64,000 nucleotides of DNA, from the NCBI GenBank assembly GCA_001773135.1, contig MEVX01000003.1, positions 172 through 64,171 of the forward strand, given 5' to 3'. Shown piece after piece: positions 8,900 to 36,177 of this stretch. Source of the stretch: a candidate division WWE3 bacterium RIFOXYB1_FULL_43_24 (GTDB lineage Bacteria > Patescibacteriota > WWE3 > UBA101185 > UBA10185). Positions within the stretch are counted from its first letter, which is position 1. Each line of letters starts with the position of its first letter. The translations under genes were made by a program, and so were the position numbers. The notes under the pieces were generated by a model. The model searched no databases. It had not been told where the DNA came from and saw only the letters and a list, made by a program, of their open reading frames with translations.

Positions 8900-8936
8900 T
8901 GTAGTTTCATTATATAGCAGGAAAGAAGTAAAGAAA

Positions 8937-9209: not shown

Positions 9210-9267
9210 TCTACTCCAGTCTTTCTAAGATTCCTGAATACTAACATACTGCGGGGGTTGTATCAAA

Positions 9268-13154: not shown

Positions 13155-13197
13155 TGAGGAAATTATACATTAGGGGGGAAGGGGGGAGGGTTTGTAC

Positions 13198-14781: not shown

Positions 14782-14799
14782 AAAGTATTTATAGCCTAA

Positions 14800-15162
14800 T
14801 CAATACTCTTTGCGAACCAACAATATTGCAGTGCCGAAAAAGAAAAGAAACAGAGCCCAGGTGGATAATTTTTCAGCTAATACCTTAAGATCGAGTAATA
14901 AAACCAGCGGTATAAGACACAAACCAACTATAGCGGCGGTATATATAACTTCTACTCTAAACTTAAACCGTAACCACAAAATAAACCAAAACGTAAAATA
15001 CAGCCAAAAAACAAAATTAATAATATAGCCAGAAAACAGCAGATCACCGATAACTATGACAACAAAACACGTTAACAACCAAAAATCTATTTTTGATTTC
15101 CTATATAATTTATAAAGGCTCTTAGGTAAATTACTTACTAATTTAGTTATGCTTTTTTTCAT
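14800..15162 (-). CDS. Small membrane protein, hypothetical
   Basis: 120 aa with 3-4 hydrophobic helices. It overlaps the start of the upstream 1207-aa gene by 20 bp. Confidence 0.3.
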   Translation of the reverse strand: MKKSITKLVSNLPKSLYKLYRKSKIDFWLLTCFVVIVIGDLLFSGYIINFVFWLYFTFWFILWLRFKFRVEVIYTAAIVGLCLIPLVLLLDLKVLAEKLSTWALFLFFFGTAILLVRKEY

Positions 15163-23321: not shown

Positions 23322-23762
23322 CTAGAAAGCGAAGAGTTTATCCAGCGCGAATCCCTGTAAATACCTCGCAATAATAAAGTACGTGTACCAGTGGGCCGGA
23401 TTGGTTAAGTAATCCCACAATAAATGAAGGGTCAATCCCAAAATTAAAGGGCACCAAATATGTTTTTTCTTTGAAAAATATGCAAAGACGCCCAAGAGCA
23501 AAACAAGCTCCCAGCTATGAAAAAATATAAAGGAGGTGTTGGTTTCGTGATAATGCTGACCGGACAGAAAATCGCTTAAATTAAAATAAAAGCCTCTATG
23601 GATAAAGTAATCCAGCAGATGATCCAGATCAACAAAAAATCCTGATAATAAGGCAACTACGTAACTTGAAAGTCTTTTATATCGTTTAAAACAGAAGTAC
23701 CCGGCGACTAAAGAAAACGCCAAGTGCCCCATTTCTGTTGTTAAAAGGTACATCCTATACAT
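23322..23762 (-). CDS. Membrane-bound metal-dependent hydrolase-like protein (YdjM/DUF457-like)
   Basis: 146 aa. It carries MGHLAFSLVAG...FFVDLDHLLDYFIH, which gives the HxxxG and DxDH pattern typical of that family. Confidence 0.45.
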   Translation of the reverse strand: MYRMYLLTTEMGHLAFSLVAGYFCFKRYKRLSSYVVALLSGFFVDLDHLLDYFIHRGFYFNLSDFLSGQHYHETNTSFIFFHSWELVLLLGVFAYFSKKKHIWCPLILGLTLHLLWDYLTNPAHWYTYFIIARYLQGFALDKLFAF

Positions 23763-23830: not shown

Positions 23831-24031
23831 ATGTGGGAGTTCGTTTTTTCTGATAGGCACGGCTTTGAAACGGCCGTAAACCGGCTAAATCATAGCGACG
23901 TGCCGTCCTGGCTTCATTCTTTGGTCGAGCTACGGATTCTAATATATTCCGCTGACGACAAGGAATTCCTGCTTCAACAGCTGGTTCTTTTGGGAGTGCC
24001 GGAAACATCGTACCGGATTAAAAAAATATGA
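23831..24031 (+). CDS. Small protein P1 (66 aa), hypothetical. Paralog of P4
   Basis: AGGAGG sits 5 nt upstream. It aligns with P4 over its full length (M..F.F...F..A..L..SD..W..S..L.I.Y...D..FL..LVLLGV...YR). Confidence 0.6.
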   Translation: MWEFVFSDRHGFETAVNRLNHSDVPSWLHSLVELRILIYSADDKEFLLQQLVLLGVPETSYRIKKI

Positions 24032-24053
24032 CTGATTGAGAAGAGGTGTACGG

Positions 24054-24278
24054 ATGCATGAATGGGTACGTTTGCGGAAGAAACAGGATATGTCAGTAAT
24101 ACAAGCTCTTCTTGACGGGATGGAAGGAAGGGATTCGGAAGGATACATAATAGACTTCTGTACCAAAAATGTCCTACCCGGCTCTGAAAGGGACACTATG
24201 AGATTTAAAGAGGTACTGACGTCCCGTGGCATTCCGTTTGGACTTAAAGCAATAAAAATGGATGAGGAGGAAAAATGA
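24054..24278 (+). CDS. Small protein P2 (~74 aa), hypothetical. Distant paralog of P7
   Basis: The ATG has GAAGAGGTG upstream. The ORF track extends it to a TTG at 24036. The stop overlaps the P3 start (ATGA). It shares ..LL...EG...E...I.....M.RFK..L with P7. Confidence 0.5.
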   Translation: MHEWVRLRKKQDMSVIQALLDGMEGRDSEGYIIDFCTKNVLPGSERDTMRFKEVLTSRGIPFGLKAIKMDEEEK

Positions 24279-24493
24279 TCGTATTCTTTGACAACCAAGA
24301 GGGCCTGACCAAAGCCATAACGGTTGGGAACAAAGTGGGAATCTGCGATTGCGAAGACTTCAGGGTCGACGCGGCTCAAAACGCAATAGTGTTTGATGAC
24401 ACTTGCGAGGTGGAAATAACCGAGTTCATTTCTGCCCTGGAAAAGAATAACAACGGATCGGAGGAACTTATATACTTTCGAGCCAGATACTAG
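24275..24493 (+). CDS. Small protein P3 (72 aa), hypothetical. Paralog of P5
   Basis: A GAGGAGG SD lies inside the P2 3' end. It aligns with P5 (M..F....L..A..G..V....VDA..N.I.FD.....FISA.....E.IYF). Confidence 0.6.
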   Translation: MIVFFDNQEGLTKAITVGNKVGICDCEDFRVDAAQNAIVFDDTCEVEITEFISALEKNNNGSEELIYFRARY

Positions 24494-24499
24494 CCCGAT

Positions 24500-24539
24500 A
24501 AGCCCGTTGTTCCAACAAAAAACAACGGGCTTTCTTTTT
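24500..24539 (+). terminator. Rho-independent terminator T1
   Basis: The stem is aagcccgttgtt / aacaacgggctt with a 9-nt loop, followed by tctttttc. It is nearly identical to T2. Confidence 0.7.
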
Positions 24540-24552
24540 CGAGGAGGGACAA

Positions 24553-24798
24553 ATGTACAACTTTTTTTTCTTTACGGAAGAAGCGTTTTCTCTAGCATTG
24601 GAGAAACTTCGTAAGAGCGATAGGAATTGGTTTTACAGCTACAAAAATCTTCTTATCAGTTTTTACGAGGGTTGCGACGCCGATTTCCTGGTAGGAGAAC
24701 TTGTTTTACTGGGAGTTTCCGGCGGGGCATACAGACTGGAGCGCCCGGAAAGGAAGAAGGGAGGAACCGAATTAAAAACTAGGGGACGTGTTAAGTAA
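24553..24798 (+). CDS. Small protein P4 (81 aa), hypothetical. Paralog of P1
   Basis: A GAGGAGGG SD is present. It carries the conserved ELVLLGV...YR block and has a basic C-terminal tail. Confidence 0.6.
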   Translation: MYNFFFFTEEAFSLALEKLRKSDRNWFYSYKNLLISFYEGCDADFLVGELVLLGVSGGAYRLERPERKKGGTELKTRGRVK

Positions 24799-24847
24799 TA
24801 CATATCTTTTTCAGACATGTAGCCGGAATAGAAAGGCAAGGGAGGAT

Positions 24848-25072
24848 ATGTACTTAATTTTTGGTTCACCTGATGATTTGCGGAGAGCGATGCGGATTGG
24901 CGAAAGGGTGCACGTGTTTGAAAGTCAGCACTACACCGTAGACGCAGAAAAAAACCGGATAAACTTTGATCGTGACATCTATCCGGAAAAAGTCCGAAGT
25001 TTTATCTCGGCTATCAGACACGTTAACTCCTGCCCTGATAAAGAACCGATTTACTTTAGTACTGCTCATTAG
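24848..25072 (+). CDS. Small protein P5 (75 aa), hypothetical. Paralog of P3
   Basis: I chose the start at the ATG preceded by GGGAGGA. The ORF track extends it upstream to 24788 without an SD. Confidence 0.55.
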   Translation: MYLIFGSPDDLRRAMRIGERVHVFESQHYTVDAEKNRINFDRDIYPEKVRSFISAIRHVNSCPDKEPIYFSTAH

Positions 25073-25097
25073 GTTAAATTTTTATTAATGAAACCTT

Positions 25098-25138
25098 AAG
25101 CCCGTTGTTTCAACAAAACACAACGGGCTTTCTTTTTT
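25098..25138 (+). terminator. Rho-independent terminator T2, a duplicate of T1
   Basis: The stem is aagcccgttgt / acaacgggctt followed by tcttttttcg. It matches T1 at almost every base. Confidence 0.7.
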
Positions 25139-25180
25139 CGGAAGGCAGTCGTGCTTGTTTAAAAGAAGGGTTTTTCAAAG

Positions 25181-25209
25181 TTGTAAACAGCCCTTTATGC
25201 TGTTAGAAT
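25181..25209 (+). promoter_or_regulatory. Sigma70-like promoter (TTGTAA, 17 nt spacer, TAGAAT) upstream of P6
   Basis: The -35 element TTGTAA is at 25181-25186 and the -10 element TAGAAT is at 25204-25209. The spacer is exactly 17 nt. This sits about 38 nt upstream of the P6 ATG. Confidence 0.5.
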
Positions 25210-25247
25210 CCCATGCAGAAAGATAATCTGGAAAAAGGAGAGAAAAT

Positions 25248-25511
25248 ATGTCCGATACGATTATAAGGCTGTTGAAAAACGGCGGGTTTGGCTATATCCG
25301 CGGGGAAGACCTCTGCAAAAGCGACACGTGTGAGTATTATGTAAGCCGGGATAACGAGTGCTTTGGTAAGCAATCAGAGACCCATAACATAATGGTCAAA
25401 CGTGCGGGCCCAATCCTGCAGGTAACAGACTCTGGTGTTGAAAAGGCAGGGTGTAAATCCATAACCCGGGAGGATCTGATGACGGGAGATTATATCTCGG
25501 TAGAAGTGTGA
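25248..25511 (+). CDS. Small protein P6 (87 aa), 4 Cys, hypothetical
   Basis: An AAAGGAGAG SD is present. It carries CKSDTC...C...C and a GFGYIRGED segment. No paralog is seen. Confidence 0.55.
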   Translation: MSDTIIRLLKNGGFGYIRGEDLCKSDTCEYYVSRDNECFGKQSETHNIMVKRAGPILQVTDSGVEKAGCKSITREDLMTGDYISVEV

Positions 25512-25563
25512 AAAGAGGCATATCTCTCAAAGGGATTCGAAACTGACTGAATAAGGGGAGGAG

Positions 25564-25797
25564 ATGAAACATTTTTTGTCCTACGACAGCGCACGTGAAA
25601 TGAAAGACTATGTGGTCAAACTGCTCCAAACCGAGGGCTACAGCACAGAATACCTCAAAATTGAAATAGTAAGGGACAAACGGGGGTTTTTCATTGAGGC
25701 ATCCTCTGAAACTGACCCACAGATGGTAACACGTTTTAAACACCTGCTACGTGAACGATTGAGAACACTTCGCAGTGCCTTAAACCTAACAATCTAG
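25564..25797 (+). CDS. Small protein P7 (77 aa), hypothetical. Distant paralog of P2
   Basis: A GGGGAGGAG SD is present. Confidence 0.55.
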   Translation: MKHFLSYDSAREMKDYVVKLLQTEGYSTEYLKIEIVRDKRGFFIEASSETDPQMVTRFKHLLRERLRTLRSALNLTI

Positions 25798-25813
25798 GTG
25801 ATGGAGGGGGAAA

Positions 25814-26107
25814 ATGCTGACTAGGATAGAAGATTTACCGAGACGTGCAGTTGCTTATGCATCAGCCTCCGCGCTGATTTTGTACAGAGGAAACCTGTAC
25901 ATAAACTTCAAAACGGGAGTCAGCTTCTCACCCGATCCGGCTACCGGCAGGACAATGCGTTTTACAACTTTGGGATCAAGCGTAGTTGTATACGACTGCA
26001 CTTTGCCCCGTGAACTTGTTGTCCGTGTACTGGATAACTGGGATATTGCAGGCATGAGCTTTCGTCCTGTCGAAATAGAAGAGAGCCTTACCGGATATTC
26101 AAACTAA
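25814..26107 (+). CDS. Small protein P8 (97 aa), hypothetical. Paralog of P9
   Basis: A GGAGGGGG SD is present. It aligns with P9 at a constant 5-residue offset (LP...., G.L.IN, TLPRE versus TLPED). Confidence 0.55.
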   Translation: MLTRIEDLPRRAVAYASASALILYRGNLYINFKTGVSFSPDPATGRTMRFTTLGSSVVVYDCTLPRELVVRVLDNWDIAGMSFRPVEIEESLTGYSN

Positions 26108-26117
26108 GAGAAAAGGA

Positions 26118-26426
26118 GTGAAAATGTTTTTTCCGAGTGTACCTCTAAGGTTGCTACCCGCAAATTCTAGGGTATTCGTATCTCCGGGGGCGTTTGTGAA
26201 ATTTGAGGGAAAACTGCACATCAACCTCAATTCCTACATAAACGACGTCTATGACCCGGACCGTTATTTTACGGTCGAAGTCACGAGGTTAGAACAGGGC
26301 GTTCTGGTAAACATGAGCACTTTACCGGAAGATTTACGCCCGCCTGAGATCAATAACAAGACAATTATCGAAAAACACTTTAACCCGATTACTAAACAGG
26401 GTTTCAGGATAGTTGACGCCTGTTAA
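26118..26426 (+). CDS. Small protein P9 (102 aa), hypothetical. Paralog of P8
   Basis: An AAAGGAG SD is present. Confidence 0.55.
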   Translation: MKMFFPSVPLRLLPANSRVFVSPGAFVKFEGKLHINLNSYINDVYDPDRYFTVEVTRLEQGVLVNMSTLPEDLRPPEINNKTIIEKHFNPITKQGFRIVDAC

Positions 26427-26433: not shown

Positions 26434-26477
26434 AAAGCCGCGACGTTTAATAAAATAAACCCGCGGCTTCTTTTTTA
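26434..26477. terminator. Bidirectional terminator hairpin between convergent P9 and the radical SAM gene
   Basis: The stem is aagccgcg / cgcggctt with an ~19-nt loop. It is followed by cttttttac on the plus strand, and A/T-rich sequence follows on the minus strand. Confidence 0.45.
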
Positions 26478-26514: not shown

Positions 26515-28125
26515 CTACTCTTTTTTTGCAGTAACACTTCCGAACATACTCTTGAGTGCATTTCCCCAAAATTTCGGTGAAGTCCAATTTACCTTTGTCT
26601 GTTCTTTATCAAAATCTAATAAATGCCCTATCAACTTCCATGCCGAATACCATAAAAATCTTACGTCGTTAAGATTTCTGACAGAAAGTATTTTTCTGAA
26701 AATATACTGCGGTGTAAAAAAAGATGAGTACAAAGATTGAGTTAATTCATACAAACGCTCGTTTGAAAAAGGAATTTTCATCACCGGTGCTCTCATATCA
26801 AATTTCTCATAATCTTTTGCGTCAACCTGCAACCAATCTTTTTCTACACATTCTTTATATAAAGGTGTGCCGGGGTAAGGAATGACGATAGTAGCCTGCA
26901 TAGTGTCTACATAACCCTTTTTAAACAAATCTTTGGCCAAGTCTATAGTCTTTTGAGCCATTTCCTCGGTCTCCCAGGGATAACCCAACATAACGGTTAT
27001 GTGAGGTTCCAAACCTGCCTTTTTAGCTATTCTGGCGCCTTCTGCAATCTCCTCTACCTTCAGTCCTTTATCCAGTTTGTCCAAAGTAAACTGATTCGCC
27101 GATTCCATTCCGTATAAAATGAATCTGAAATTGGCCTTGTTCATTAATTCGTAGTATTCGGACGTAAGGGCATTCAGTCTCATGTTGCACCCGATGACTA
27201 CTTTTTTGTTGTACCCTGACTCGATTAACAGCTCACAAAACTTTTTCAACGGTGGTCCGACAAATAAAGTTCCGGCGTCATCGAATATTTCTTTAACACC
27301 GTAGTTATCGACAACATGTTTAACTTCGGCAAAAAGTCTTTCGGGAGAAAATCTTCTATAAAAACCCTGGGGATTTAACGTGTGATCCCAGACACAAAAT
27401 GTACATCTATTCCACCAACAGTCTCTTCCCGAATACATGTAGGTCGCCGGCGTATATTTATAATTTCCGTTCGCATACGCATAGAGTTTCCATTTTGTAA
27501 GGTCGCGGTCAACAAATGGAAGGTCGTCGAGATTATGTTGAAGTTCTAAAGGACCGCTTTGAAAGTACTCTTCTTCGCCGGATATTTCAGACTTGTGCAT
27601 TTTTAACCACTTGGGATCGATTGAAACTCTTTTGTCTCCTTTTCTACCATAGATTCCACCGGGCAAAAAAGTCTTATTTTTTATGGCATCCAGCATATCG
27701 CTTAGTAAAAAGTCGTAATCACCCCCTGTAATAATGTAATCGATTTTGCAGGCATCCAGGGTTTCTATGGGGTTCCAGGTTACATGGTCTCCGACAAGAA
27801 TGATTGTCATTTCAGGGAATTTCTCTTTTAACTCGTCAATTATTTTCCAGTGAAATTTCAAAACGGGAGCTTTGGTTTCCAGCATAAGGTAATCGGGCTT
27901 TTCGTTATCGAGCTCTGTGAGCCATTCTGCGTACGTTTTTTTCTCGGCAATACCGTCCATCCACACGACATCGTATCCGCGCTCTTTGGCTAAAGAGGCT
28001 GCGTAAGCCGGTACCATGGGATATATGTATGTCGGGGCGTTGAAATACTGGAACTGTCTGTTTTGAGACAGCAGGGGCACTCCTTTGAGTTGATCTATTG
28101 GAGGATAACCTATGACTAACTTCAC
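26515..28125 (-). CDS. B12-binding-domain radical SAM protein with non-canonical CX4CX2C spacing
   Basis: The N-terminus has a Rossmann-like B12-binding fold (IGYPPI...MTIILVGDHVTW). The radical SAM core carries RDCWWNRCTFCVW. The DNA reads GGA AGA GAC TGT TGG TGG AAT AGA TGT ACA TTT TGT on the minus strand, which confirms the spacing. Confidence 0.65.
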   Translation of the reverse strand: MKLVIGYPPIDQLKGVPLLSQNRQFQYFNAPTYIYPMVPAYAASLAKERGYDVVWMDGIAEKKTYAEWLTELDNEKPDYLMLETKAPVLKFHWKIIDELKEKFPEMTIILVGDHVTWNPIETLDACKIDYIITGGDYDFLLSDMLDAIKNKTFLPGGIYGRKGDKRVSIDPKWLKMHKSEISGEEEYFQSGPLELQHNLDDLPFVDRDLTKWKLYAYANGNYKYTPATYMYSGRDCWWNRCTFCVWDHTLNPQGFYRRFSPERLFAEVKHVVDNYGVKEIFDDAGTLFVGPPLKKFCELLIESGYNKKVVIGCNMRLNALTSEYYELMNKANFRFILYGMESANQFTLDKLDKGLKVEEIAEGARIAKKAGLEPHITVMLGYPWETEEMAQKTIDLAKDLFKKGYVDTMQATIVIPYPGTPLYKECVEKDWLQVDAKDYEKFDMRAPVMKIPFSNERLYELTQSLYSSFFTPQYIFRKILSVRNLNDVRFLWYSAWKLIGHLLDFDKEQTKVNWTSPKFWGNALKSMFGSVTAKKE

Positions 28126-28179
28126 CTGAACAGTATATATAAACTATCTAATAAGTTCAAGGAGTATATAGATGGGTAT

Positions 28180-28437
28180 CTATTTGTTCTCAGGGTACAA
28201 AACGTTACCTTCAAGATCTTCAACAATTATTGCTGTTGTCGGGCAGCTTTTAGCGCCTTTTATGATTTCTTCCGCTTCATTCCACGTGCCTTCTTTCGCG
28301 TAAACGATTCCATTGGGGTCAAGATCAAAAGTTTCGGGCGCATGTATTACACAGGTCGCCGCACTTATACATTTTTCATTTATAACTTTTATAATTACCT
28401 TTGAGTTTGGATTCCTATAAGTAGAGATCTCTTCCAT
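28180..28437 (-). CDS. Single-cluster [3Fe-4S]/[4Fe-4S] ferredoxin
   Basis: 85 aa. It carries CISAATC...CP (CxxAxxC...CP), which is typical of small single-cluster ferredoxins. It lies immediately upstream of the radical SAM gene. Confidence 0.6.
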   Translation of the reverse strand: MEEISTYRNPNSKVIIKVINEKCISAATCVIHAPETFDLDPNGIVYAKEGTWNEAEEIIKGAKSCPTTAIIVEDLEGNVLYPENK

Positions 28438-28439: not shown

Positions 28440-29453
28440 TTATCCTCCTAAATAATTTCCTGTTGCTTTATCGATGCCCCTTAATTTTAACTTGGGTTTT
28501 TTGATTATACCAACTATAAAATTAAATCCATAAACTACGTGGGTCAAAAATATTCCTGCGGGAACGTAAAAAAGTGTTTTTAAATTTCTGTCTTTTAAAA
28601 AAACGCGCAGCCCTTCAATCAATAACATCGCTGTGTATATTAATAAACCGGCCAGATAAAATTTCCATAATTGCGGAACTAGTAAAGACACAAAAGGACC
28701 GGACACCAAACCGGTCAGAAACACCGATGGGGCAAAATATGAAGGAAGTCTGGAGGTCTCGGGAAATATCCTGGCAAACTGCCCCCTGTGGCGTCCGTAC
28801 CTGGATATTTGCTTTAGGTGCGGGATAAAAAGGTTCCTCCTGTGGTGGTACACGACCGGTTTAGAGTCATATTTAAACTTACGACCGTAGGTTTTTACAA
28901 GTTCCAGACAGAGCTTAGTGTCCTCTCCGGGCCAAAATTCGATTGGAAACCCCCCTGCTCTCTCGAAAGCTTCTTTTCTCACAAACAAATTGACGGTGGG
29001 GTAGTCAGATATTTCCATACTTTTTCCGGGTTTATGTCTGTATACTGTTCCGGCGCTTGCCATGTATGACTCCAGTACTCTGCCCGACATTTTTTCCAAA
29101 AATTGGGCGTCTTTCGGTGTCATAGCCGGACCTCCTAATGCGTACACCCCGCTATCTGCAAAAATTTCAACTGCCCTATCCAGCCAATCTTTCTCGGGGT
29201 AGGCGTCATCGTCCAAAAAGGCTAATATATCTCCCAATGCTTTTACTGCCCCGACATTCCTTTTTTCTCCCGGACCTATCGGTCCTGAAGCGACTAAAAC
29301 AAACCTTTGATCCTGAAAATCATACTTCTCTTCTTCATCCGTAATTATTATTACTTCAAAATTTTTGTAAGAAAGTTCTTTCAGATGGGAAATGTTCTCT
29401 TGCAAGAACACATTTATTTTTCTGACTGGGATAATAATACTGAACTTATTCAT
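28440..29453 (-). CDS. Glycosyltransferase family 2
   Basis: Translation carries FSIIIPVRKINVFLQENISHLKELSYKNFEVIIITDEEE with a DDD motif. The C-terminus is TM-rich. Confidence 0.65.
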   Translation of the reverse strand: MNKFSIIIPVRKINVFLQENISHLKELSYKNFEVIIITDEEEKYDFQDQRFVLVASGPIGPGEKRNVGAVKALGDILAFLDDDAYPEKDWLDRAVEIFADSGVYALGGPAMTPKDAQFLEKMSGRVLESYMASAGTVYRHKPGKSMEISDYPTVNLFVRKEAFERAGGFPIEFWPGEDTKLCLELVKTYGRKFKYDSKPVVYHHRRNLFIPHLKQISRYGRHRGQFARIFPETSRLPSYFAPSVFLTGLVSGPFVSLLVPQLWKFYLAGLLIYTAMLLIEGLRVFLKDRNLKTLFYVPAGIFLTHVVYGFNFIVGIIKKPKLKLRGIDKATGNYLGG

Positions 29454-30279
29454 CTTTTAACTCTCCGGTGTTTACTCTCATTTCCAGTTCTTTGTCGTAT
29501 ACCCACTTACGGTTGCTATGATCATCGTAATATTTTAGAATTTTTAATCTATAAAAAACCGCGGCCGTGTCCGCGAGCATATTTCTGATGTGTTTGTCGA
29601 AGACAAAAAATGGCGAAAAAGTTGAAGCTGAAAAATCAATCGTGACATAGACCGGTGCTTCGTATATTTTGTCAAAGCCCAGGTGATTAGCCACAGCTAA
29701 AAGCTCTATATCAAAGGCAAACTTCTTTATCGCCAATCTGGATAGTACCTTTTCCAGAACTTCCCTCTTCATAACTTTCAGGCCTGTTTGTGTATCCTTT
29801 AGCTTTAAACCGAAAAGAAGCCGCACCATCGTGTGATAACCCCAGCTATATACTCTCCTAACGGCAGGATAATTAACTTTTGAAACCGGGTGTTTCTTAC
29901 TCCCCACAATAATATCGGCCCCGTACCACTCCATATGTTCCAACAACATTGAGATCCCGTTCGGGTTTATATCCATTCCCGCGTCTATAAAACAAACATA
30001 ATCTCCCGACGCCCTTGCCATTCCATATCTTATTGCGTAGCCCTTACCTTTATTAGTTTCGTAACCGAAAACTTTCAGTTTTTTATTCTGTAAAGATTTG
30101 GCAATGTCGTATGTTTTATCTAGTAAGCCGTCGACAACAACAATTATTTCAAAATCCCATCTGGTCTGAAGCATCGTGTTCAGGATATTTTCAAGATCTT
30201 GTTTGATAGTTTTTTCTTGTTTATAGGCAGGGACAATTATCGAAACTAGTTTTTCAGATTTCTTTTGCTCTTTTTCCAT
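29446..30279 (-). CDS. Glycosyltransferase family 2
   Basis: Translation carries VSIIVPAYKQEKTIKQDLENILNTMLQTRWDFEIIVVVDG and FIDAGMD (DxD). Confidence 0.7.
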   Translation of the reverse strand: MEKEQKKSEKLVSIIVPAYKQEKTIKQDLENILNTMLQTRWDFEIIVVVDGLLDKTYDIAKSLQNKKLKVFGYETNKGKGYAIRYGMARASGDYVCFIDAGMDINPNGISMLLEHMEWYGADIIVGSKKHPVSKVNYPAVRRVYSWGYHTMVRLLFGLKLKDTQTGLKVMKREVLEKVLSRLAIKKFAFDIELLAVANHLGFDKIYEAPVYVTIDFSASTFSPFFVFDKHIRNMLADTAAVFYRLKILKYYDDHSNRKWVYDKELEMRVNTGELKDE

Positions 30280-31531
30280 TGTTACCTACTATAAAGAATA
30301 TTGTAAGAAGTACTAGGCTGATTATACCAGCATATATGTCAGCTCTGATTATATCGTACAACGTCGCGTGGTTTGTAGTTATAAGCACGTACTGTACAAC
30401 TAAGCCGGGGAATAGCAGCAAGAACACCGAGGTTCTACTGACGGCCAAAAAGAAGAGTACAAGAAAGTTTATGATTATGTACAACCCTATAAATAAGGCA
30501 AAAGCAGGCAAGTATTCTACGGAGTTCATAAACCTTTCTCCGAAGAACAACCTGGTAAGGAAGCCCGGGAAAACAGAAAAAGCTACCAATCCTCCGGCAA
30601 CCAGCACTAACTGCAGTGATAAAAATTTGAAAAACGCCCGGCCATAATTTAAACCCCGTGCTGCCAAAGAAGATATTGTAGGGAACATTACCGTAGAAAC
30701 TGCTCCTGCACCGAACAAAAATATTTTTCCCAAAGTAACGGTGCCCGCATAATAACCTGCCATCTCAGGTTCAAAATATTTTTTAACTAAAATAAGGTCT
30801 ATATTATTTAAAAACATTAATCCGAAATTCACGAACATTACAGGCAAACTAAACGCGACCAATCTTTTATAGTCTTGCATCAGACTAATGTTTTCAAATA
30901 CAGTAAGGTTTCTCCGTAAAATAAAAAATGCGCTAACCAATGCTGCCACACCTCCGACAAACATTCCCCCGAAAGCACCCGCTAATTTAAACCCCAACAG
31001 TACGGCAAGAACCGAAAACGTAAAACGGTACGCACTCGACATTACGTTAAAAAACGCGAAAGCACGGTATCTTAGCAAACCCTGAAAGTACGCGGACGGT
31101 ATCACCCCGGCAAAGGCTAATCCCATAGAAATACCATAAACACTAATAATCCCAATATCATAAATCTTTAACTGTTCTGAGATACTAAATCTTAGTAAAA
31201 AGATAGCGAGTGAGATTCCGATCCCGAGCACCAGTGATATAACTAGTAACTTCCAATATAAAGCTGTAAGTTTTTTTGAATCCTGCCTCGAAGAAAGTTC
31301 AGAAACATATTTTATAAGGGATACACTAAAAACCCCGGCAGGGACACCGACTAAATATGACAAAGAAATTAGAGCGTTAAAAGTTCCGAAGTCCGCGACC
31401 GAAAGTATTCTTCCGAAAATAAACTGCAGTAAATAGGAAAAAATTGATGCCAGAACACTTCCGGCTCCTATGTATACCGTACCCATCAAATATTTATTAG
31501 TCTTAACTTTTTGTATGAAAGCGCCGATCAT
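30254..31531 (-). CDS. MOP-superfamily flippase (Wzx-like polysaccharide biosynthesis protein)
   Basis: 425 aa and about 12 TM helices. It has the typical Wzx-like hydrophobic profile. Confidence 0.6.
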   Translation of the reverse strand: MIGAFIQKVKTNKYLMGTVYIGAGSVLASIFSYLLQFIFGRILSVADFGTFNALISLSYLVGVPAGVFSVSLIKYVSELSSRQDSKKLTALYWKLLVISLVLGIGISLAIFLLRFSISEQLKIYDIGIISVYGISMGLAFAGVIPSAYFQGLLRYRAFAFFNVMSSAYRFTFSVLAVLLGFKLAGAFGGMFVGGVAALVSAFFILRRNLTVFENISLMQDYKRLVAFSLPVMFVNFGLMFLNNIDLILVKKYFEPEMAGYYAGTVTLGKIFLFGAGAVSTVMFPTISSLAARGLNYGRAFFKFLSLQLVLVAGGLVAFSVFPGFLTRLFFGERFMNSVEYLPAFALFIGLYIIINFLVLFFLAVSRTSVFLLLFPGLVVQYVLITTNHATLYDIIRADIYAGIISLVLLTIFFIVGNNGKRAKEI

Positions 31532-33120
31532 AATGAAGTTCTCTCGTAGACCTTATACACTTCAACACCTCTAAGATAAATGCTATCTATATACTTCAAA
31601 CCAAATCTTTTCTCTTCCGTAGAAATATCATCCCAAACAGGATAGACAAAATACTTCGTCTTTACCGCAAAAGGTGTCAGATCCTCAATAACTGCATATC
31701 CCCCTATTACGCGGAAAAACGGGTGAATCTGGGTGTAATATTTTTCCTGAAAAGCTACGGTTAGTGCGTCCTGCGGGTCAGCCCCGTTTAAAACTTTTTC
31801 CAGAGACGTGTCACCGTAAATAGGCTCAGTTCCGTCTTCAATCATTTTCTTTTCAAAAAAGTTAATCACTTCTCTTTCCCCGATCAACCACTTAGGTTCC
31901 AAAATATTAATTCCTTTTTTAAGGCCGCCGAACATCGGGTTGTAATACGACAAGTAATCGGGGTGAAGATAAAACGCCGGTACCGCCGCCACAGCTATCA
32001 AAGGAATGAATTTTAAGAAACTTCTCCCCTTTACTTTTTCTATCAGCCATATCCAGAAAAATGAGGTAACCATGGATAGCATCATTAAGTTCGGCAAAAT
32101 ATAACGGTCCAGTTTTTTTGTGGGGATTATTAACTGTACAAAATAAAATCCTACGAACAGCAAAGAGTAAAGTAAAAACTTGCGGTGACCTTCATTAAAT
32201 ATTTTTTTCCAAAAAAGCGCGGTTCCGATTAAACCTAAAATCAAGAGATACGAAGATCTTAGACCTAAAACAACAAAATAATAGAAAAAGCCCGGATCCT
32301 CTACCAGTTTTCCGAAGTAAAACTGAGCATGTTCTCTTTCTATTCCTATCTCCGAAACCCCGCGGTATAACGCGGCAAGAGCCTGCCCCGGAAATGCCCA
32401 CATGGCGGGCCAAACTGCCACAAATGTCGCTAAAAACACTAGCAACCATATTCCAATCTTCGGTAAGGTATTCACAATATTTTTGCGTCCCTCTATCAGC
32501 AGAATCAAACCAGCGTAAGGGAACATGAACAAAGCCGATGTCTTGGTTAAAAAAGCTAATCCTGCGAATACTGCGGAGATTATCAATCTTTTTTTCTTAC
32601 CCGACTCCAGCGTGTAATAGTAAAGCCACAAAAAAGACGCCAGCATAAATGTTGACATCAAACCTTCCAAATGAAATTCACGGGTCAGTGCAATATAAAA
32701 CGGCTCCAACGAAAGCAGCGCAAGAACCAACAAAGCTTTTCTTGCCCCGAATAATTTTTTAAGTACAAAAAGTGAGAAACCGAGTGTTACCGCTATTGTT
32801 ATTACAACAAAAAGTTTCTGCACAAAGTGGAGCTGAAAAATCATTGAGACACTATTTTCAGCCGGATAATATCCGGAGTAAAAATTGTAAGCTTTTATCG
32901 CAGCCGTCCCGAGCCACATTAAAGTAACCCCGGGATGATATTTTTGTATTGTCTTTTCCGGATCCCATGTAAAAACTCCCGTCCCGAAATCATAACTCCG
33001 TGCCTTCCATTTCCATACATCGGTATTAAACGTATCGTTTCCCAGATCCGGTAACCTGAAGATTATAAAAAGAAGGACAAAAAGTATACCGAACATATGT
33101 TTCTTTATAAATTTAAGCAT
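31528..33120 (-). CDS. Polytopic GT-C-like membrane glycosyltransferase (putative). Paralog of 34603..36177
   Basis: It shares the blocks YHPGVTLMW, LEPFYIA and KKLDRYILP with the 34603..36177 product. Confidence 0.5.
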   Translation of the reverse strand: MLKFIKKHMFGILFVLLFIIFRLPDLGNDTFNTDVWKWKARSYDFGTGVFTWDPEKTIQKYHPGVTLMWLGTAAIKAYNFYSGYYPAENSVSMIFQLHFVQKLFVVITIAVTLGFSLFVLKKLFGARKALLVLALLSLEPFYIALTREFHLEGLMSTFMLASFLWLYYYTLESGKKKRLIISAVFAGLAFLTKTSALFMFPYAGLILLIEGRKNIVNTLPKIGIWLLVFLATFVAVWPAMWAFPGQALAALYRGVSEIGIEREHAQFYFGKLVEDPGFFYYFVVLGLRSSYLLILGLIGTALFWKKIFNEGHRKFLLYSLLFVGFYFVQLIIPTKKLDRYILPNLMMLSMVTSFFWIWLIEKVKGRSFLKFIPLIAVAAVPAFYLHPDYLSYYNPMFGGLKKGINILEPKWLIGEREVINFFEKKMIEDGTEPIYGDTSLEKVLNGADPQDALTVAFQEKYYTQIHPFFRVIGGYAVIEDLTPFAVKTKYFVYPVWDDISTEEKRFGLKYIDSIYLRGVEVYKVYERTSL

Positions 33121-34646
33121 CAGCGGATCATCTCCTCGACCGTGATATACGGGCCTATTCTACCCTTATTAGACACTTCAAAAATTGCACGGCCTGAAGA
33201 AGTACCTTTATTTAATTCTATGTAATAATACCGCGTACCTTTCGGTAATTTCGCCGGATCTTTTATGGCATCGTTAAATACATACCTGGCCACGGGTTCT
33301 ACATCGGAGCTTCCGTAAACTATTCTAGTTCCCAGCGGAACTTCCTTTTCCAGGAATTTTTTCAAATCAAGACGGGTGTCGTTTCTTAAAAATCTGACCG
33401 AGTTATTAACAGATAAATAGAACGGCGGTAAAAATAATATTAGCATTATAGGAAAGTACAGAGATTTCATTCCCAAACTTGCCTTATTCATAGCCCACAC
33501 ACAGAAGTAACCGAATATTACAGAAAGGAACGGGTACGTAATAAAGTAGTATTGCGAGCGGCTTTTTTCAAAACCCGAAATATAATAAATCAAAGCAAAA
33601 GCCGGAACTATTAAAAACATCAACGAAATATCAAACCTTGAAAATGTTCCTTTTAAAAATCTAATTAGTACTAGGCCGGAAGTTAGAAACAACGCGACTA
33701 AAATTGTATAGCCCAAATCGTCCGAAATCTTGAAACTCATGTCCGTGAAAAACTTTCCCACATGGTCAGCAAAGTTCACTGATCCTACATTTGTGAACTG
33801 CCAAAAAGCCCCGGCCGCAGAGTCGGTTCTGCTAAAAGTCTTGTAGTCTAATAGTGCGTACGGGGTACCGAGTAAAAACCCTAAAAAGGCAAATATTGCG
33901 GACAAAATAAGGTTCAAAATCGTGTGAAAATAGGGAAAATCGCCCCTTGTTTCAGAAAGGCGCATTTTCACCAAAACCCAGCGTAAAAACGCCGCCAAAG
34001 GCACCGTAATGGCTCCCAGACCCCCGTTATATTTGTTCGATGCTGCTATCCCTATAAAAAACCCTGAAAGTATATAGTCTATAGGGTATCCGCGTGCGAG
34101 AATTCGCGCTGCGAAATAAACTCCCCAAGCCATAAAGAACAACATGGGCGCGTCCGGCAGCGAATAATGGGAATGCCACACGTGGAAAGGAATTAGGGTA
34201 AAAGCCAGGGCAGACAAAAGACCGACTTTGTCGCCAAACAAAACTTTACCTGTTTTGTATATCGGAATTACAGTTAAAGCCCCGAGCACTGCTGCAAAAA
34301 CGCGCGTAATAAAATAGAATACGACCGTATCGTCCCACATAAGGGGGAATATTTTTATCATAAAGTTTTGAAAATTATAATCGACTGCGAGATCCCGGAT
34401 CTTTGCAAAAACTTTGAACACAAAATAGTTAGCATATATAAAAAAGTGGGGCCAATCGAAATGACCGGGATTCGGATCAAACCTCACGTCCAGAGCAGAA
34501 CGCACAATGGTGGGTTCGTCGGGGTGAAAAATAAAAGGAAAGCCGTGATTTATTCCGGCCAATCTTAATGCAAGGGCAAGAAATATTATCAGGTATAAAA
34601 GACTACTTGTCTTCCTTGACATATATTCTCCAATACTCCAACCCAT
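33120..34646 (-). CDS. Polytopic GT-C-like membrane glycosyltransferase (putative, ArnT/PMT-like)
   Basis: It carries FHPDEPTIVRSALDV, which is an early-loop DE motif as in GT-C enzymes. It has about 12 TM helices and a C-terminal soluble domain. Confidence 0.5.
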   Translation of the reverse strand: MGWSIGEYMSRKTSSLLYLIIFLALALRLAGINHGFPFIFHPDEPTIVRSALDVRFDPNPGHFDWPHFFIYANYFVFKVFAKIRDLAVDYNFQNFMIKIFPLMWDDTVVFYFITRVFAAVLGALTVIPIYKTGKVLFGDKVGLLSALAFTLIPFHVWHSHYSLPDAPMLFFMAWGVYFAARILARGYPIDYILSGFFIGIAASNKYNGGLGAITVPLAAFLRWVLVKMRLSETRGDFPYFHTILNLILSAIFAFLGFLLGTPYALLDYKTFSRTDSAAGAFWQFTNVGSVNFADHVGKFFTDMSFKISDDLGYTILVALFLTSGLVLIRFLKGTFSRFDISLMFLIVPAFALIYYISGFEKSRSQYYFITYPFLSVIFGYFCVWAMNKASLGMKSLYFPIMLILFLPPFYLSVNNSVRFLRNDTRLDLKKFLEKEVPLGTRIVYGSSDVEPVARYVFNDAIKDPAKLPKGTRYYYIELNKGTSSGRAIFEVSNKGRIGPYITVEEMIR

Positions 34647-36177
34647 TAATGTAAAGCGACGAATCTTTTTTGAATCGGGTTCGGCTCTTCAGCACTTTCT
34701 CAGGCATTTCCTCGTTTATTCCAAGTATCAATAATTCGTAGTCGCTAACCCCGTTAATACGGATGTCTACCACTTTTGAATTTGAATAAATGGCCTTCAT
34801 GGGCTTTGTATCTATAAACCCCAGCTCAACCTCGCTACCGTACCTGTCAACTATGTAATCCTTTAGCGCGGGAACAGCGATACCGAAAGGTTTTTGGGCG
34901 ATGATTCTATTAGCGGATTCGGCCGTACCAACCACCGGGCTTGTGTATGTAAAGTAATAAGGAAAATCTACAACTGCCGGTAATATGTAAAAAAGAGTAA
35001 ACAGGAAAATTGCTATGCTTATAAAAATTTTCCTTAACCTGGCTTTTTTAATTGAAGAGTAGAAACGTACAATTCCGTGCGCTGCCAAAAGTGCTAAAAA
35101 CGGATAAAGGGGCAGCATGTACCTATCAAGTTTTTTTGACGGATAAATCATAACGGAAAAATATCCGAGATAAAATACTGCGAGATAAAGATAAGGGTTA
35201 GAATATTTGGAAGCAACGTTTTTCAGAATTGCCCGAACGGATTTTGTACATTTTATCAAACACAACATAAGGCCTATTATTAAAAACGGTGTGGTTTTAA
35301 TTAGAAGTACCAACGGATAGAATAAAATTCCTGCGTCCTGAGTAGTTTCCCCGAACAGAATTTGTTCGTGACCTTTTCTTATTCCCACTCTTTCGGATTC
35401 GGCAAAAATTTCCGTCAGGTAGTAAACGGGTCTTACCCACATTGCAGGAAAAAGCAGAAAAGTTGTTAATATAAACGAACCCAATATCGTGAAAAAATAT
35501 TTCAAAAGTCCCTTTAAATCTTTTTTATGCGCAAAATAAGCGATCGAAAAAAGTAACACAAAAAAGAGGGCGCCTATACCGATGCTTTTAGTGAGAAATG
35601 AAAGTGATAAGAACACCCCCGCCAAAACTGCCCCTTTATAGCTAAATTCCTTTAAATTTAACCAGCTTATTAGTAGGGCAATAAGCACAAAAAGTGCTAA
35701 CAGCACATCCATGTGGTATAGCCTGGAGTTGCCTATAAAGAAAGGCTCCAGCGAGAAAAGAAACACCGAAAAATAGGCTATTTTGAACCCAAAAACCCGT
35801 GTCAGGTAATATAAAAGGATAAACGTCAAAATTAACTGGGCAAATACCACCGAAACTTTTGCTACGGTGTTAAAGGCTAGGAAGTTGTGCTGGTCATAAG
35901 TGGTGATTCCTGTAATTTGTTTATAAATCTCTATCGGTACTCCGCTAATCCACATTAAAGTCACCCCGGGGTGGTAATGCTGGTAAGTACGTTCAAAATC
36001 CCTCAACTTCAAACCGACTATAAATTGTTGGGACCTGTAGTGCCAATTAACCCCATCGGGATTTACTTCATCGGGGCCGAGAAAAAGAAAACGTGTAAGA
36101 CCGAAGACTAAAATAAAAAAAATGATAGCTACATACTTATTTTTAATAAAACCGATCAAACGTTCGCGTGTTTTCAT
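34603..36177 (-). CDS. Polytopic GT-C-like membrane glycosyltransferase (putative). Paralog of 31528..33120
   Basis: It carries YQHYHPGVTLMW, LEPFFIGNSRLYHMD and KKLDRYMLP. Confidence 0.5.
   Translation of the reverse strand: MKTRERLIGFIKNKYVAIIFFILVFGLTRFLFLGPDEVNPDGVNWHYRSQQFIVGLKLRDFERTYQHYHPGVTLMWISGVPIEIYKQITGITTYDQHNFLAFNTVAKVSVVFAQLILTFILLYYLTRVFGFKIAYFSVFLFSLEPFFIGNSRLYHMDVLLALFVLIALLISWLNLKEFSYKGAVLAGVFLSLSFLTKSIGIGALFFVLLFSIAYFAHKKDLKGLLKYFFTILGSFILTTFLLFPAMWVRPVYYLTEIFAESERVGIRKGHEQILFGETTQDAGILFYPLVLLIKTTPFLIIGLMLCLIKCTKSVRAILKNVASKYSNPYLYLAVFYLGYFSVMIYPSKKLDRYMLPLYPFLALLAAHGIVRFYSSIKKARLRKIFISIAIFLFTLFYILPAVVDFPYYFTYTSPVVGTAESANRIIAQKPFGIAVPALKDYIVDRYGSEVELGFIDTKPMKAIYSNSKVVDIRINGVSDYELLILGINEEMPEKVLKSRTRFKKDSSLYINGLEYWRIYVKEDK

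What the first reader, a model, noticed from the sequence alone, without database searches (positions are those of the whole stretch)
26515..28437. B12-binding radical SAM enzyme with non-canonical CX4CX2C cluster spacing, co-transcribed with a single-cluster ferredoxin inside the glycan cluster
The translation reads RDCWWNRCTFC and the DNA confirms the codons. This gives CX4CX2C instead of the canonical CX3CX2C. An N-terminal Rossmann-like cobalamin-binding domain precedes it. Immediately upstream is an 85-aa CxxAxxC...CP ferredoxin, a likely dedicated reductant. B12-rSAM enzymes catalyse C-methylation or other radical chemistry at unactivated carbons. In this context a sugar C-methyltransferase or epimerase acting on a nucleotide- or lipid-linked sugar is plausible.
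Basis: partly seen in the sequence, partly recalled or inferred. Interest (0 to 1): 0.6.

Follow-up and report, generated by a model that had tools for sequence, protein, structure and literature searches.

The report
Uncharacterised radical SAM enzyme, glycan cluster
This is an intact, very strongly conserved but uncharacterised radical SAM enzyme of candidate-phyla-radiation bacteria that always sits beside a membrane glycosyltransferase and usually a small ferredoxin, so it most likely modifies a membrane-anchored sugar; its odd cysteine spacing is real but already known from other enzymes of this class.

Summary
Window 26515-28125 (-) encodes an unbroken 536-aa protein with RDCWWNRCTFC (CX4CX2C). 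An 85-aa, three-cysteine CxxAxxC...CP ferredoxin lies 54 nt upstream (28180-28437).

- **Motif:** All 120 closest homologues (71-92% identical; WWE3 and other Patescibacteria) keep CX4CX2C. The SAM-binding motifs are invariant.
- **Spacing is not new:** OxsB and GenD1 have CX4CX2C. In this clade the loop varies (X3, X4, X7, X9 and longer), and some paralogues have no cysteines.
- **Fold:** The fold is class-B-like, a Rossmann domain plus a radical SAM barrel. Cobalamin binding is unproven: Pfam B12-binding scores below threshold, and the top structural match, AprD4, binds no cobalamin.
- **Closest characterised family:** HpnJ, but far below its cutoff.
- **Synteny (80 species genomes):** A membrane GT2 lies upstream in 68 of 69 informative loci and the ferredoxin in 53 of 69. 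The ferredoxin sits at the GT2's 3' end.

Best reading: a ferredoxin-fed radical SAM enzyme that modifies a lipid-linked sugar made by the neighbouring GT2s, before flipping and GT-C transfer. The chemistry is unresolved; C-methylation is favoured, and HpnJ-like rearrangement or deoxygenation remain open. It is a new member of a known kind, of moderate interest.

The parts
26515..28125 (-). Radical SAM enzyme, 536 aa, GTG start; class-B-like architecture
   Evidence: ORF. Pfam Radical_SAM 66.4 bits. Best NCBIfam hit is HpnJ at 154.8 bits, far below the 577.6 cutoff. AF2 model pLDDT 82.8. Foldseek top hits are AprD4, MgmA, TsrM, OxsB, CysS and TokK.
27661..28125 (-). N-terminal Rossmann-like (cobalamin-binding-type) domain, about aa 1-155
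   Evidence: Pfam B12-binding 24.4 bits over aa 34-134, below the 32.1 cutoff. Relatives score 34-40 bits. The model has five beta/alpha units: E2-7, E52-57, E79-84, E107-112, E130-132.
27394..27420 (-). Cluster-binding loop C236-WWNR-C241-TF-C244 (CX4CX2C)
   Evidence: Codons read directly. Present in 120 of 120 close homologues. Invariant in A1.
26836..27447 (-). Radical SAM partial TIM-barrel core, about aa 227-430, with the SAM-binding motifs FDDAGT (281-286), GMES (339-342), MLGYPWET (379-386) and PYPGTPLY (416-423)
   Evidence: These residues are invariant in A1. They align to ISGGTGT, YGIESGS, VGYPGEDE and PIPGTEL of the solved methylase MgmA 9ccb.
28180..28437 (-). 85-aa single-cluster ferredoxin with three Cys (CxxAxxC...CP), i.e. 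[3Fe-4S]-type
   Evidence: Pfam Fer4_13 38.6 bits. Best PDB relatives are single-cluster ferredoxins 4id8 and 1dax. Present upstream of the radical SAM gene in 53 of 69 informative loci; 47 of 53 have exactly three Cys with Ala at the second-Cys position.
28132..28160 (-). Weak promoter-like site (TTGAAC-17-TATACT) in the 54-nt ferredoxin-to-radical-SAM gap
   Evidence: 9 of 12 consensus match. The number of such sites in the region is not above shuffled controls. Function not shown.
26435..26469 (.). 8-bp perfect GC-rich inverted repeat (AAGCCGCG/CGCGGCTT, 19-nt loop) 46 nt past the radical SAM stop; a candidate terminator between convergent genes
28440..29453 (-). Membrane GT2 (337 aa) with DDD, GED and QISRY motifs and three C-terminal TM segments; the constant partner of the radical SAM gene
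   Evidence: Pfam Glycos_transf_2 and Glyco_trans_2_3. TM segments at aa 240-317. Motifs. AF2 pLDDT 91.6. Foldseek matches PcManGT 6yv7 and hyaluronan and cellulose synthases. Upstream on the same strand in 68 of 69 loci.
29446..30279 (-). GT2 (277 aa) resembling polyprenyl-phosphate glycosyltransferases
   Evidence: Best PDB relatives are P. furiosus Dol-P-Man synthase 5mlz, GtrB 5ekp and ArnC. NCBIfam hits include PpgS, ArnC and Dol-P-hexose transferase, all sub-threshold. Syntenic in most loci.
30254..31531 (-). Wzx-like flippase (Polysacc_synt)
31528..36177 (-). Three tandem GT-C (PMT_2/PMT) glycosyltransferases that use lipid-phosphate-sugar donors

Best explanation
The gene encodes a functional radical SAM enzyme of the class-B (cobalamin-domain) architecture. 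A [4Fe-4S] cluster held by C236, C241 and C244 is reduced, most likely by the adjacent [3Fe-4S]-type ferredoxin. The reduced cluster cleaves SAM to a 5'-deoxyadenosyl radical. That radical abstracts a hydrogen from a sugar carbon of a membrane-anchored (polyprenyl-phosphate- or lipid-linked) glycosyl intermediate made by the two GT2 enzymes encoded just upstream. The modified sugar is then flipped by the Wzx-like protein and transferred to the cell surface by the GT-C (PMT_2) enzymes of the same operon. The extra residue in the CX4CX2C loop is a tolerated, lineage-fixed length variant of the cluster loop, as in OxsB and GenD1; it is not a new cofactor-binding mode. What is shown: an intact gene, conserved cluster and SAM motifs, the fold, and the gene association. 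What is inferred: the substrate class, the ferredoxin as reductant, and cobalamin use. The chemical outcome is not resolved. My estimates are about 40% for cobalamin-dependent C-methylation of the sugar, about 20-25% for an HpnJ/Cds-like ring rearrangement, and about 15% for deoxygenation or epimerisation.
For: The cluster motif is intact and invariant. The GGE-like, GxES, GxPxE and beta-6 motifs are invariant and align to those of the solved enzyme MgmA. The model is confident, and its best structural matches are all Rossmann-plus-radical-SAM enzymes, two of which (AprD4, OxsB) act on sugars or nucleosides. Synteny across 80 species genomes shows GT2_337 upstream in 68 of 69 informative loci and the ferredoxin in 53 of 69, with GT2_277, a flippase and PMT_2 further upstream. 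The radical SAM protein is the best conserved protein of the block: 63-92% identical, against 32-81% for GT2_337 and 22-90% for the flippase. GT2_277 resembles Dol-P-Man synthase, GtrB and ArnC. GT2_337 is a minimal cellulose-synthase-like membrane GT2. More distant relatives from other lineages also lie in glycan clusters: next to a GT2_337-like gene with PMT, YfhO and epimerases (L086), next to a Bac_transf phosphoglycosyltransferase (L087), and with GTs and methyltransferases (L088, L089, Lawsonia plasmid L004). The closest characterised family, HpnJ, likewise follows a membrane GT2 (hpnI) and is thought to act on a lipid-linked sugar (PMC13459092).
Against: There is no biochemical or genetic data for any member of this family, and four literature searches on CPR/WWE3/Patescibacteria radical SAM, ferredoxin and cobalamin found nothing on it. 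Cobalamin binding is unproven: Pfam B12-binding is sub-threshold, and AprD4, the top structural hit, does not bind cobalamin (PMC12931638). CPR bacteria are generally regarded as unable to make cobalamin (my own knowledge, not checked here). The ferredoxin is missing in 16 of 69 loci, and where genes are inserted it stays with the GT2 rather than with the radical SAM gene. [3Fe-4S] ferredoxins often have potentials too high for easy reduction of a radical SAM cluster (general knowledge). GT2_337 shows no specific similarity to HpnI (E = 0.13). Gene neighbourhood cannot tell a lipid-linked substrate from a nucleotide-linked one.
Confidence: 0.55

Rival explanations
1. HpnJ/Cds-type non-methylating rearrangement. 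The radical at a ring carbon of a lipid-linked hexose or hexosamine opens and re-closes the ring to give a carbocyclic (cyclitol-like) or otherwise rearranged head group.
For: HpnJ is the best NCBIfam hit by a wide margin (E = 3e-45, against 6e-28 for BchE, also a non-methylase, and 1e-19 or weaker for the rest, which include the methylase families). The operon logic is the same, a membrane GT2 followed by the radical SAM gene. The other CX4CX2C enzyme with a solved structure, OxsB, is a ring-contracting enzyme (PMC9204698).
Against: The score is only 154.8 bits against a cutoff of 577.6, and tblastn identity to HpnJ genes is about 29%. In a rough NJ tree the query clade is separate from the HpnJ clade. 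No HpnK-like deacetylase or hopanoid genes are present. HpnJ's own chemistry is only inferred from a knockout (PMC13459092). In published similarity networks HpnJ co-clusters with the methylases Fom3 and MoeK5 (PMC9204698).
Confidence: 0.2
2. Cobalamin-independent sugar chemistry in an AprD4-like manner (1,2-diol dehydration leading to deoxygenation, or epimerisation). The Rossmann domain would serve as a scaffold or substrate-binding module rather than as a B12 site.
For: AprD4 is the top Foldseek hit (E = 2.9e-18) and one of only two PDB sequence hits. It acts on an amino sugar and binds no cobalamin (PMC12931638). The Pfam B12-binding score is sub-threshold. This reading removes the need for B12 scavenging in a minimal genome.
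Against: The NCBIfam AprD4 model scores only 42.6 bits against a cutoff of 500. Cobalamin-binding enzymes (MgmA, TsrM, OxsB, CysS, TokK) match almost as well structurally. The N-terminal domain is extremely conserved, with dozens of invariant residues at aa 7-160, as expected for a cofactor site. No AprD3-like reductase partner was recognised in the operon.
Confidence: 0.15
3. The enzyme does not act on a glycan. It modifies a protein or peptide, RNA, or the lipid carrier itself, and its position in the glycan operon is incidental.
For: Radical SAM enzymes of this architecture include peptide and protein methylases (MgmA, TsrM-like, RiPP enzymes), which score weakly here.
Against: The GT2 association holds in 68 of 69 loci across divergent CPR lineages and reappears in distant relatives. 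No precursor-peptide or RiPP genes were seen nearby.
Confidence: 0.07
4. The CX4CX2C protein is a catalytically dead or degenerate paralogue.
For: Related subfamilies without any cluster cysteines do exist (P0141, P0143, P0148, P0150, P0154).
Against: All three Cys and all SAM motifs are invariant over 63 sequences. Protein identity stays at 63-92% across the 80 species-representative CPR loci. CX4CX2C supports an active cluster in OxsB (PMC9204698).
Confidence: 0.03

Closest known systems
HpnJ (hopanoid-associated B12-type radical SAM protein, TIGR03471)
   Same: Best-scoring characterised family. Same two-domain architecture. The gene follows a membrane GT2 (hpnI). The presumed substrate is a lipid-anchored sugar.
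   Different: 154.8 bits against a 577.6 cutoff and about 29% identity. HpnJ has the canonical CX3CX2C (CRSRCTFC). There is no hpnK, shc or hopanoid context. GT2_337 is not HpnI-like. No ferredoxin gene was annotated in the roughly 11 kb of the one hpnJ locus examined.
OxsB and GenD1/Sis14 (cobalamin-dependent radical SAM enzymes with CX4CX2C)
   Same: Same non-canonical CX4CX2C spacing in a class-B architecture. Their substrates are a nucleoside sugar (OxsB) or an aminoglycoside sugar (GenD1) (PMC9204698, PMC4340712). OxsB is among the top structural matches.
   Different: OxsB shares only about 14% identity and is a larger protein of 729 aa. The one-residue insertion appears to have arisen independently: a rough NJ tree also shows a second CX4 subclade inside the CX3 group.
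AprD4 (radical SAM 1,2-diol dehydratase, PDB 6fd2)
   Same: Top Foldseek hit and a PDB sequence hit. It has a Rossmann-like N-domain plus a radical SAM core and takes a sugar substrate.
   Different: 16-17% identity. The NCBIfam AprD4 model scores 42.6 against a 500 cutoff. AprD4 binds no cobalamin (PMC12931638); whether this protein does is unknown.
MgmA/QCMT (methyl-coenzyme M reductase glutamine C-methyltransferase, PDB 9ccb)
   Same: Best PDB sequence hit (E = 4.7e-9). The SAM-binding motifs align one to one.
   Different: It has a protein substrate, CX3CX2C (CPGNCTFC) and an archaeal methanogen context. TIGR04014 scores 48.6 against a 360 cutoff.
Und-P-sugar modification pathways (ArnC/ArnD/ArnT; DPR-to-DPA epimerisation feeding GT-C arabinosyltransferases)
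   Same: The same logic: a GT2 makes a polyprenyl-P-monosaccharide, an enzyme tailors it on the carrier, and a flippase and a GT-C transferase deliver it outside (general knowledge; GT2_277 matches ArnC, GtrB and DPMS).
   Different: None of those pathways uses a radical SAM enzyme for the tailoring step.

Membership tests
Radical SAM superfamily | PF04055 core above the gathering score | tested here: met
   66.4 bits against 29.5, aa 234-397
Radical SAM superfamily | Three-Cys motif for the SAM-binding [4Fe-4S] cluster (canonically CX3CX2C) | tested here: met
   The three Cys are present and invariant, but spaced CX4CX2C. This spacing is an accepted variant (PMC9477430, PMC9204698).
Radical SAM superfamily | SAM-binding motifs (GGE-like, ribose/GxES, GxIxGxxE, beta-6) | tested here: met
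   FDDAGT, GMES, MLGYPWET and PYPGTPLY are invariant and align to the corresponding motifs of MgmA.
Class B (cobalamin-dependent) radical SAM enzymes | N-terminal cobalamin-binding Rossmann domain (PF02310) | tested here: inconclusive
   24.4 bits, below the 32.1 cutoff, in this protein. Relatives at 50-53% identity score 34-40 bits. The fold matches TsrM, OxsB, TokK, CysS and MgmA, but equally AprD4, which binds no cobalamin (PMC12931638).
Class B (cobalamin-dependent) radical SAM enzymes | Actual binding and use of cobalamin | not testable with these tools
   This needs purified protein or at least cofactor-aware modelling. No model coordinates were available for pocket analysis.
HpnJ (TIGR03471) | Score at or above the curated equivalog cutoff | tested here: not met
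   154.8 against 577.6 bits
HpnJ (TIGR03471) | hpnI-hpnJ-hpnK / hopanoid gene context | tested here: not met
   No HpnK or hopanoid genes were found in the annotated stretches of the window (13.2-23.8 kb and 26.5-47.7 kb). GT2_337 against HpnI gives E = 0.13.
AprD4 family diol dehydratase (NF033070) | Score at or above the curated cutoff | tested here: not met
   42.6 against 500 bits, although it is the top structural neighbour.
[3Fe-4S]/[4Fe-4S] single-cluster ferredoxins (Fer4_13/Fer4_15) | Pfam domain above cutoff and a CxxXxxC...CP ligand pattern | tested here: met
   38.6 against 24.5 bits. Three Cys with Ala at the second-Cys position in 47 of 53 orthologues.
Polyprenyl-phosphate glycosyltransferases (DPMS/GtrB/ArnC type), for GT2_277 | Specific similarity to solved members | tested here: inconclusive
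   The best PDB hits are DPMS 5mlz (E = 3e-14), GtrB and ArnC, but over the GT-A domain only. No TM segment is predicted, and all NCBIfam hits are sub-threshold.

The most novel reading that the evidence does not exclude
A radical enzyme found so far in WWE3, Roizmanbacteria/Microgenomates and other Patescibacteria builds an unusual sugar directly on a membrane carrier. The sugar could be C-branched, carbocyclic (HpnJ/Cds-like) or deoxygenated. The enzyme is fed by its own [3Fe-4S] ferredoxin. This would define a previously unknown, strongly conserved building block of the CPR cell surface, possibly with scavenged cobalamin as an obligatory cofactor in organisms with minimal genomes.
Probability: 0.15. 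Interest if true: 0.7.

Novelty: new member of a known kind. Interest (0 to 1): 0.4.

Why it matters
CPR/Patescibacteria have tiny genomes and depend on hosts. Their surface glycans are probably central to attachment, yet their chemistry is essentially unknown. In this block the radical SAM protein is the most conserved protein: 63-92% identical across WWE3 and Roizmanbacteria/Microgenomates loci in which the neighbouring glycosyltransferase drops to about 35%. It is always paired with the same membrane GT2, and in some lineages inteins are inserted at its catalytic cysteines. These are hallmarks of an important function under strong selection. Identifying its product would reveal a conserved envelope modification of a major uncultured radiation. 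It would also show whether these organisms depend on scavenged cobalamin. As a point of enzymology, the family offers a natural series of cluster-loop lengths (X3, X4, X7, X9 and longer, and cysteine-free) for studying how loop length affects radical SAM clusters. The CX4CX2C spacing taken alone is not a discovery.

Tried and rejected
1. Frameshift or alignment artefact for the extra residue: rejected. The ORF is full length, and the motif is identical in 120 of 120 homologues.
2. Membership of HpnJ, BchE, AprD4, MgmA, PhpK or HpnR: all NCBIfam scores are far below the cutoffs.
3. GT2_337 as an HpnI orthologue: BLASTP gives E = 0.13.
4. A cobalamin riboswitch or any other Rfam RNA in the window: no match at gathering thresholds.
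5. A terminator between the ferredoxin and radical SAM genes: none found. The promoter-like site in the gap is no better than shuffled background.
6. Function from the genes inserted between the ferredoxin and radical SAM genes in other genomes: a 319-aa cluster, the 241-aa ORF of L002 and the 336-aa ORF of L001 gave no significant Pfam hit.
7. An auxiliary cluster from the extra invariant cysteines (C297, C313, C426): C313 is a general feature of the wider family (present in HpnJ and in the Lawsonia protein), while C297 and C426 are not conserved there. I therefore see no support for an auxiliary cluster.
8. Literature on this family in CPR: four searches found nothing relevant.
10. Names or taxonomy for the mid-distance relatives: largely absent.
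Full report
**1. What is in the sequence**

The finding's range holds two minus-strand ORFs. One is a 536-aa protein at 26515..28125 with a GTG start. The other is an 85-aa protein at 28180..28437. The DNA at 27420..27394 reads tgt tgg tgg aat aga tgt aca ttt tgt, which is C-W-W-N-R-C-T-F-C. The CX4CX2C spacing is therefore real. The ORF is unbroken, and homologues up to 92% identical align over its whole length.

Pfam finds Radical_SAM at 66.4 bits against a cutoff of 29.5. It finds the B12-binding domain at only 24.4 bits, below the 32.1 cutoff. The small protein matches the single-cluster ferredoxin families Fer4_13, Fer4_19 and Fer4_15. It has exactly three cysteines, arranged CxxAxxC...CP. 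That is the ligand pattern of [3Fe-4S] ferredoxins (established knowledge). Its nearest solved relatives are single-cluster ferredoxins.

**2. Is the spacing an artefact, and is it unusual?**

All 120 best homologues (71-92% identical, named WWE3 or Patescibacteria where named) have C-x4-C-x2-C, and none has C-x3-C-x2-C. C236, C241 and C244 are invariant in a 63-sequence alignment.

The same alignment shows FDDAGT (281-286), GMES (339-342), MLGYPWET (379-386) and PYPGTPLY (416-423) as invariant. In the HMMER alignment to the solved methylase MgmA (9ccb), these line up with its ISGGTGT, YGIESGS, VGYPGEDE and PIPGTEL motifs.

The spacing is not new, however. OxsB has CX4CX2C in a crystal structure (PMC9204698). 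GenD1 and Sis14 have it (PMC4340712). RadicalSAM.org lists clusters with CX4 and CX7 spacing (PMC9477430).

A search of 1.84 billion representatives found 266 clusters at E < 1e-30. Among the best 150, the loop is X3 in 53, X4 in 33 and X7 in 7, with X9 to X16 in a few. Several full-length relatives have no cluster cysteines at all, yet still match Radical_SAM, and in some cases B12-binding, above Pfam's cutoffs. True HpnJ (Mycetohabitans) and a Lawsonia plasmid homologue have the canonical CX3.

A rough neighbour-joining tree, without support values, places the query in a clade where loop length is variable. It also shows a second, separate CX4 subclade inside the CX3 group. The extra residue is best seen as a tolerated, lineage-fixed loop-length variant.

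**3. Fold and family**

An AlphaFold2 model built on 63 homologues is confident (pLDDT 82.8, pTM 0.85). It is weak only in the cofactor-dependent Cys loop and in a loop at aa 19-29. It shows a five-stranded beta/alpha N-terminal domain, a linker, the radical SAM barrel and a helical C-terminal region.

Foldseek against the PDB ranks AprD4 first, followed by MgmA, TsrM, OxsB, CysS and TokK, and then MiaB. All of these are Rossmann-plus-radical-SAM enzymes. AprD4 does not bind cobalamin despite having such a domain (PMC12931638), so cobalamin use here is an inference. Partial support comes from relatives that are 50-53% identical and pass Pfam's B12-binding cutoff at 34-40 bits, and from the very high conservation of the N-terminal domain.

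By NCBIfam the closest characterised family is HpnJ at 154.8 bits (E = 3e-45), against a cutoff of 577.6. BchE follows at 98 bits, and the methylases score 57 bits or less. The protein is therefore not a member of any named equivalog family.

**4. Organism and context**

The nearest genome is the complete WWE3 genome RAAC2_WWE3_1, with 92% identity for this protein. The gene closes a long minus-strand operon. In the direction of transcription, that operon holds:
- a UDP-sugar dehydrogenase, three GT4 genes, a PMT_2 gene, a GT2 gene, a DUF2079 gene and a flippase;
- three PMT_2/PMT GT-C genes and a second flippase;
- GT2 (277 aa), GT2 (337 aa), the ferredoxin and the radical SAM gene.

No Rfam family, including cobalamin riboswitches, is found in the window.

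The ferredoxin start lies 2 nt after the GT2_337 stop, and the ferredoxin-to-radical-SAM gap is 54 nt. No terminator-like site lies in that gap. It contains one weak promoter-like match that is no better than shuffled controls. An 8-bp GC-rich inverted repeat follows the radical SAM stop. Co-transcription is likely but not demonstrated.

**5. Conserved synteny**

I compared 80 species-representative loci from WWE3, Roizmanbacteria, Microgenomates and other Patescibacteria.
- Of the 69 loci with at least 1.8 kb of upstream sequence, 68 have a GT2_337 homologue upstream on the same strand.
- 53 of the 69 (77%) have the ferredoxin.
- The ferredoxin directly follows GT2_337 in 48 of those 53.
- In 15 of the 53, at least 0.8 kb of extra DNA is inserted between the ferredoxin and the radical SAM gene, in 11 loci a 319-aa ORF family with no significant Pfam hit. 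In one locus (L047) the ferredoxin stays next to the radical SAM gene instead.
- 47 of the 53 ferredoxins have exactly three Cys with Ala at the second-Cys position.

The radical SAM protein is the best conserved member of the block. It is 63-92% identical, against 32-81% for GT2_337 and 22-90% for the flippase.

**6. The partner enzymes**

GT2_277 is most similar to the P. furiosus Dol-P-Man synthase, to GtrB and to ArnC. GT2_337 has three C-terminal TM segments and DDD, GED and QISRY motifs, a signature of the D,D,D,QxxRW type. Its confident model (pLDDT 91.6) matches the minimal cellulose-synthase-like PcManGT and hyaluronan and cellulose synthases. It shows no specific similarity to HpnI.

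More distant relatives of the radical SAM protein also sit in glycan clusters:
- P0128 (41% identical, CX3) lies beside a GT2_337-like gene, with three further B12-type radical SAM paralogues, PMT, YfhO and sugar epimerases (L086).
- P0135 is followed by a Bac_transf phosphoglycosyltransferase (L087).
- P0289 is overlapped by a class I methyltransferase gene (L088).
- P0140 lies in an array of radical SAM genes, GTs and methyltransferases (L089).
- A Lawsonia plasmid homologue lies among GT2, GalE, SIS, GHMP-kinase and HAD (heptose-type) genes and methyltransferase genes.

**7. Mechanism**

Shown: an intact radical SAM active site, a class-B-like fold, and a near-obligate association with a membrane GT2 inside an operon rich in GT-C enzymes and flippases.

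Inferred: the enzyme abstracts a hydrogen from a sugar on a membrane carrier made by the adjacent GT2 enzymes. The ferredoxin supplies the electrons; glycosyltransferases need none, so the radical SAM enzyme is the only obvious client. The product is then flipped and transferred by the GT-C enzymes. This mirrors known tailoring of sugars on the carrier (ArnC/ArnD/ArnT; DPR to DPA) and the hpnI-hpnJ logic.

The chemistry is open. C-methylation is the commonest outcome in class B. The nearest characterised families, HpnJ and BchE, are non-methylases. AprD4-like deoxygenation without cobalamin is not excluded. Two caveats apply. The ferredoxin is absent from 23% of loci. [3Fe-4S] clusters are not ideal low-potential donors (general knowledge).

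**8. Novelty and verdict**

No paper in the searchable library discusses this family. It is an uncharacterised subfamily of a well-known enzyme class, with a cysteine spacing that has precedent. The noteworthy aspects are its extreme conservation in CPR bacteria, the fixed GT2-(ferredoxin)-radical SAM module, and the loop-length plasticity, cysteine-free paralogues and inteins among its relatives. I rate it a new member of a known kind, with interest 0.4.

Noticed in passing
Relatives P0122, P0124, P0125, P0126 (intein at the third cluster Cys) and P0123 (intein at the first cluster Cys): Homologues of 665-972 aa carry inteins (Pfam Intein_splicing; all except P0125 also LAGLIDADG_3) inserted exactly at a cysteine of the radical SAM cluster motif. 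The forms are CTF|C...N|CSWT and RD|C...HN|CWWRR. There are two different insertion sites in one 9-14-residue motif.
   Followed up: partly
Relatives P0141, P0143, P0148, P0150, P0154: These full-length paralogues have lost all three cluster cysteines. Of the three scanned, P0141 still passes Pfam's cutoffs for both B12-binding and Radical_SAM, P0143 for Radical_SAM only, and P0150 for neither (31.8 and 24.8 bits). They are possible pseudoenzymes or non-radical relatives.
   Followed up: partly
window 23831-26426 (+ strand): A roughly 2.6-kb island of nine small ORFs (66-102 aa) lies on the opposite strand. It has internal paralogy by eye (23831-24031 resembles 24553-24798; 24275-24493 resembles 24788-25072). 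In the 24-26 kb bin the GC content is higher (0.44) and the GC skew is reversed (+0.15). It sits between the radical SAM gene and a YdjM-like gene (23322-23762) that lies directly downstream of the radical SAM gene in other CPR genomes. It looks like an inserted cassette of unknown function.
   Followed up: no
L086 (whole locus) and L089 (3549-13123): In other lineages, relatives form arrays of four B12-domain-type radical SAM paralogues (in L089 plus one SPASM-type radical SAM gene), interleaved with GT2/GT4, YfhO/PMT GT-C and class I methyltransferase genes. This suggests heavily radical-tailored glycans.
   Followed up: partly
window 15143-18766, 13198-14781 and 14800-15162 (- strand): Large ORFs of 1207 and 527 aa, plus one of 120 aa, lie downstream of the glycan genes. 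None has a Pfam match at E <= 0.001.
   Followed up: no
L004 (Lawsonia intracellularis 27-kb plasmid) 2455-16195: About half of this small plasmid of an obligate intracellular pathogen is a glycan-tailoring cluster. It holds three GT2 genes, GalE, SIS/GHMP-kinase/HAD heptose-type genes, two radical SAM genes and six annotated class I methyltransferase CDSs.
   Followed up: no
window 19877-21268 (- strand): A 463-aa protein with two tandem class I SAM-methyltransferase domains lies in the adjacent GT2/GT4 operon.
   Followed up: no
L013 -1047..-88 relative to the radical SAM start, and 10 other loci (cluster 11): A conserved 319-aa ORF family, rich in Cys (CYCDRC motif) and with only a faint Glyco_hydro_42-like hit, is inserted between the ferredoxin and the radical SAM gene in 11 species.
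   Followed up: partly
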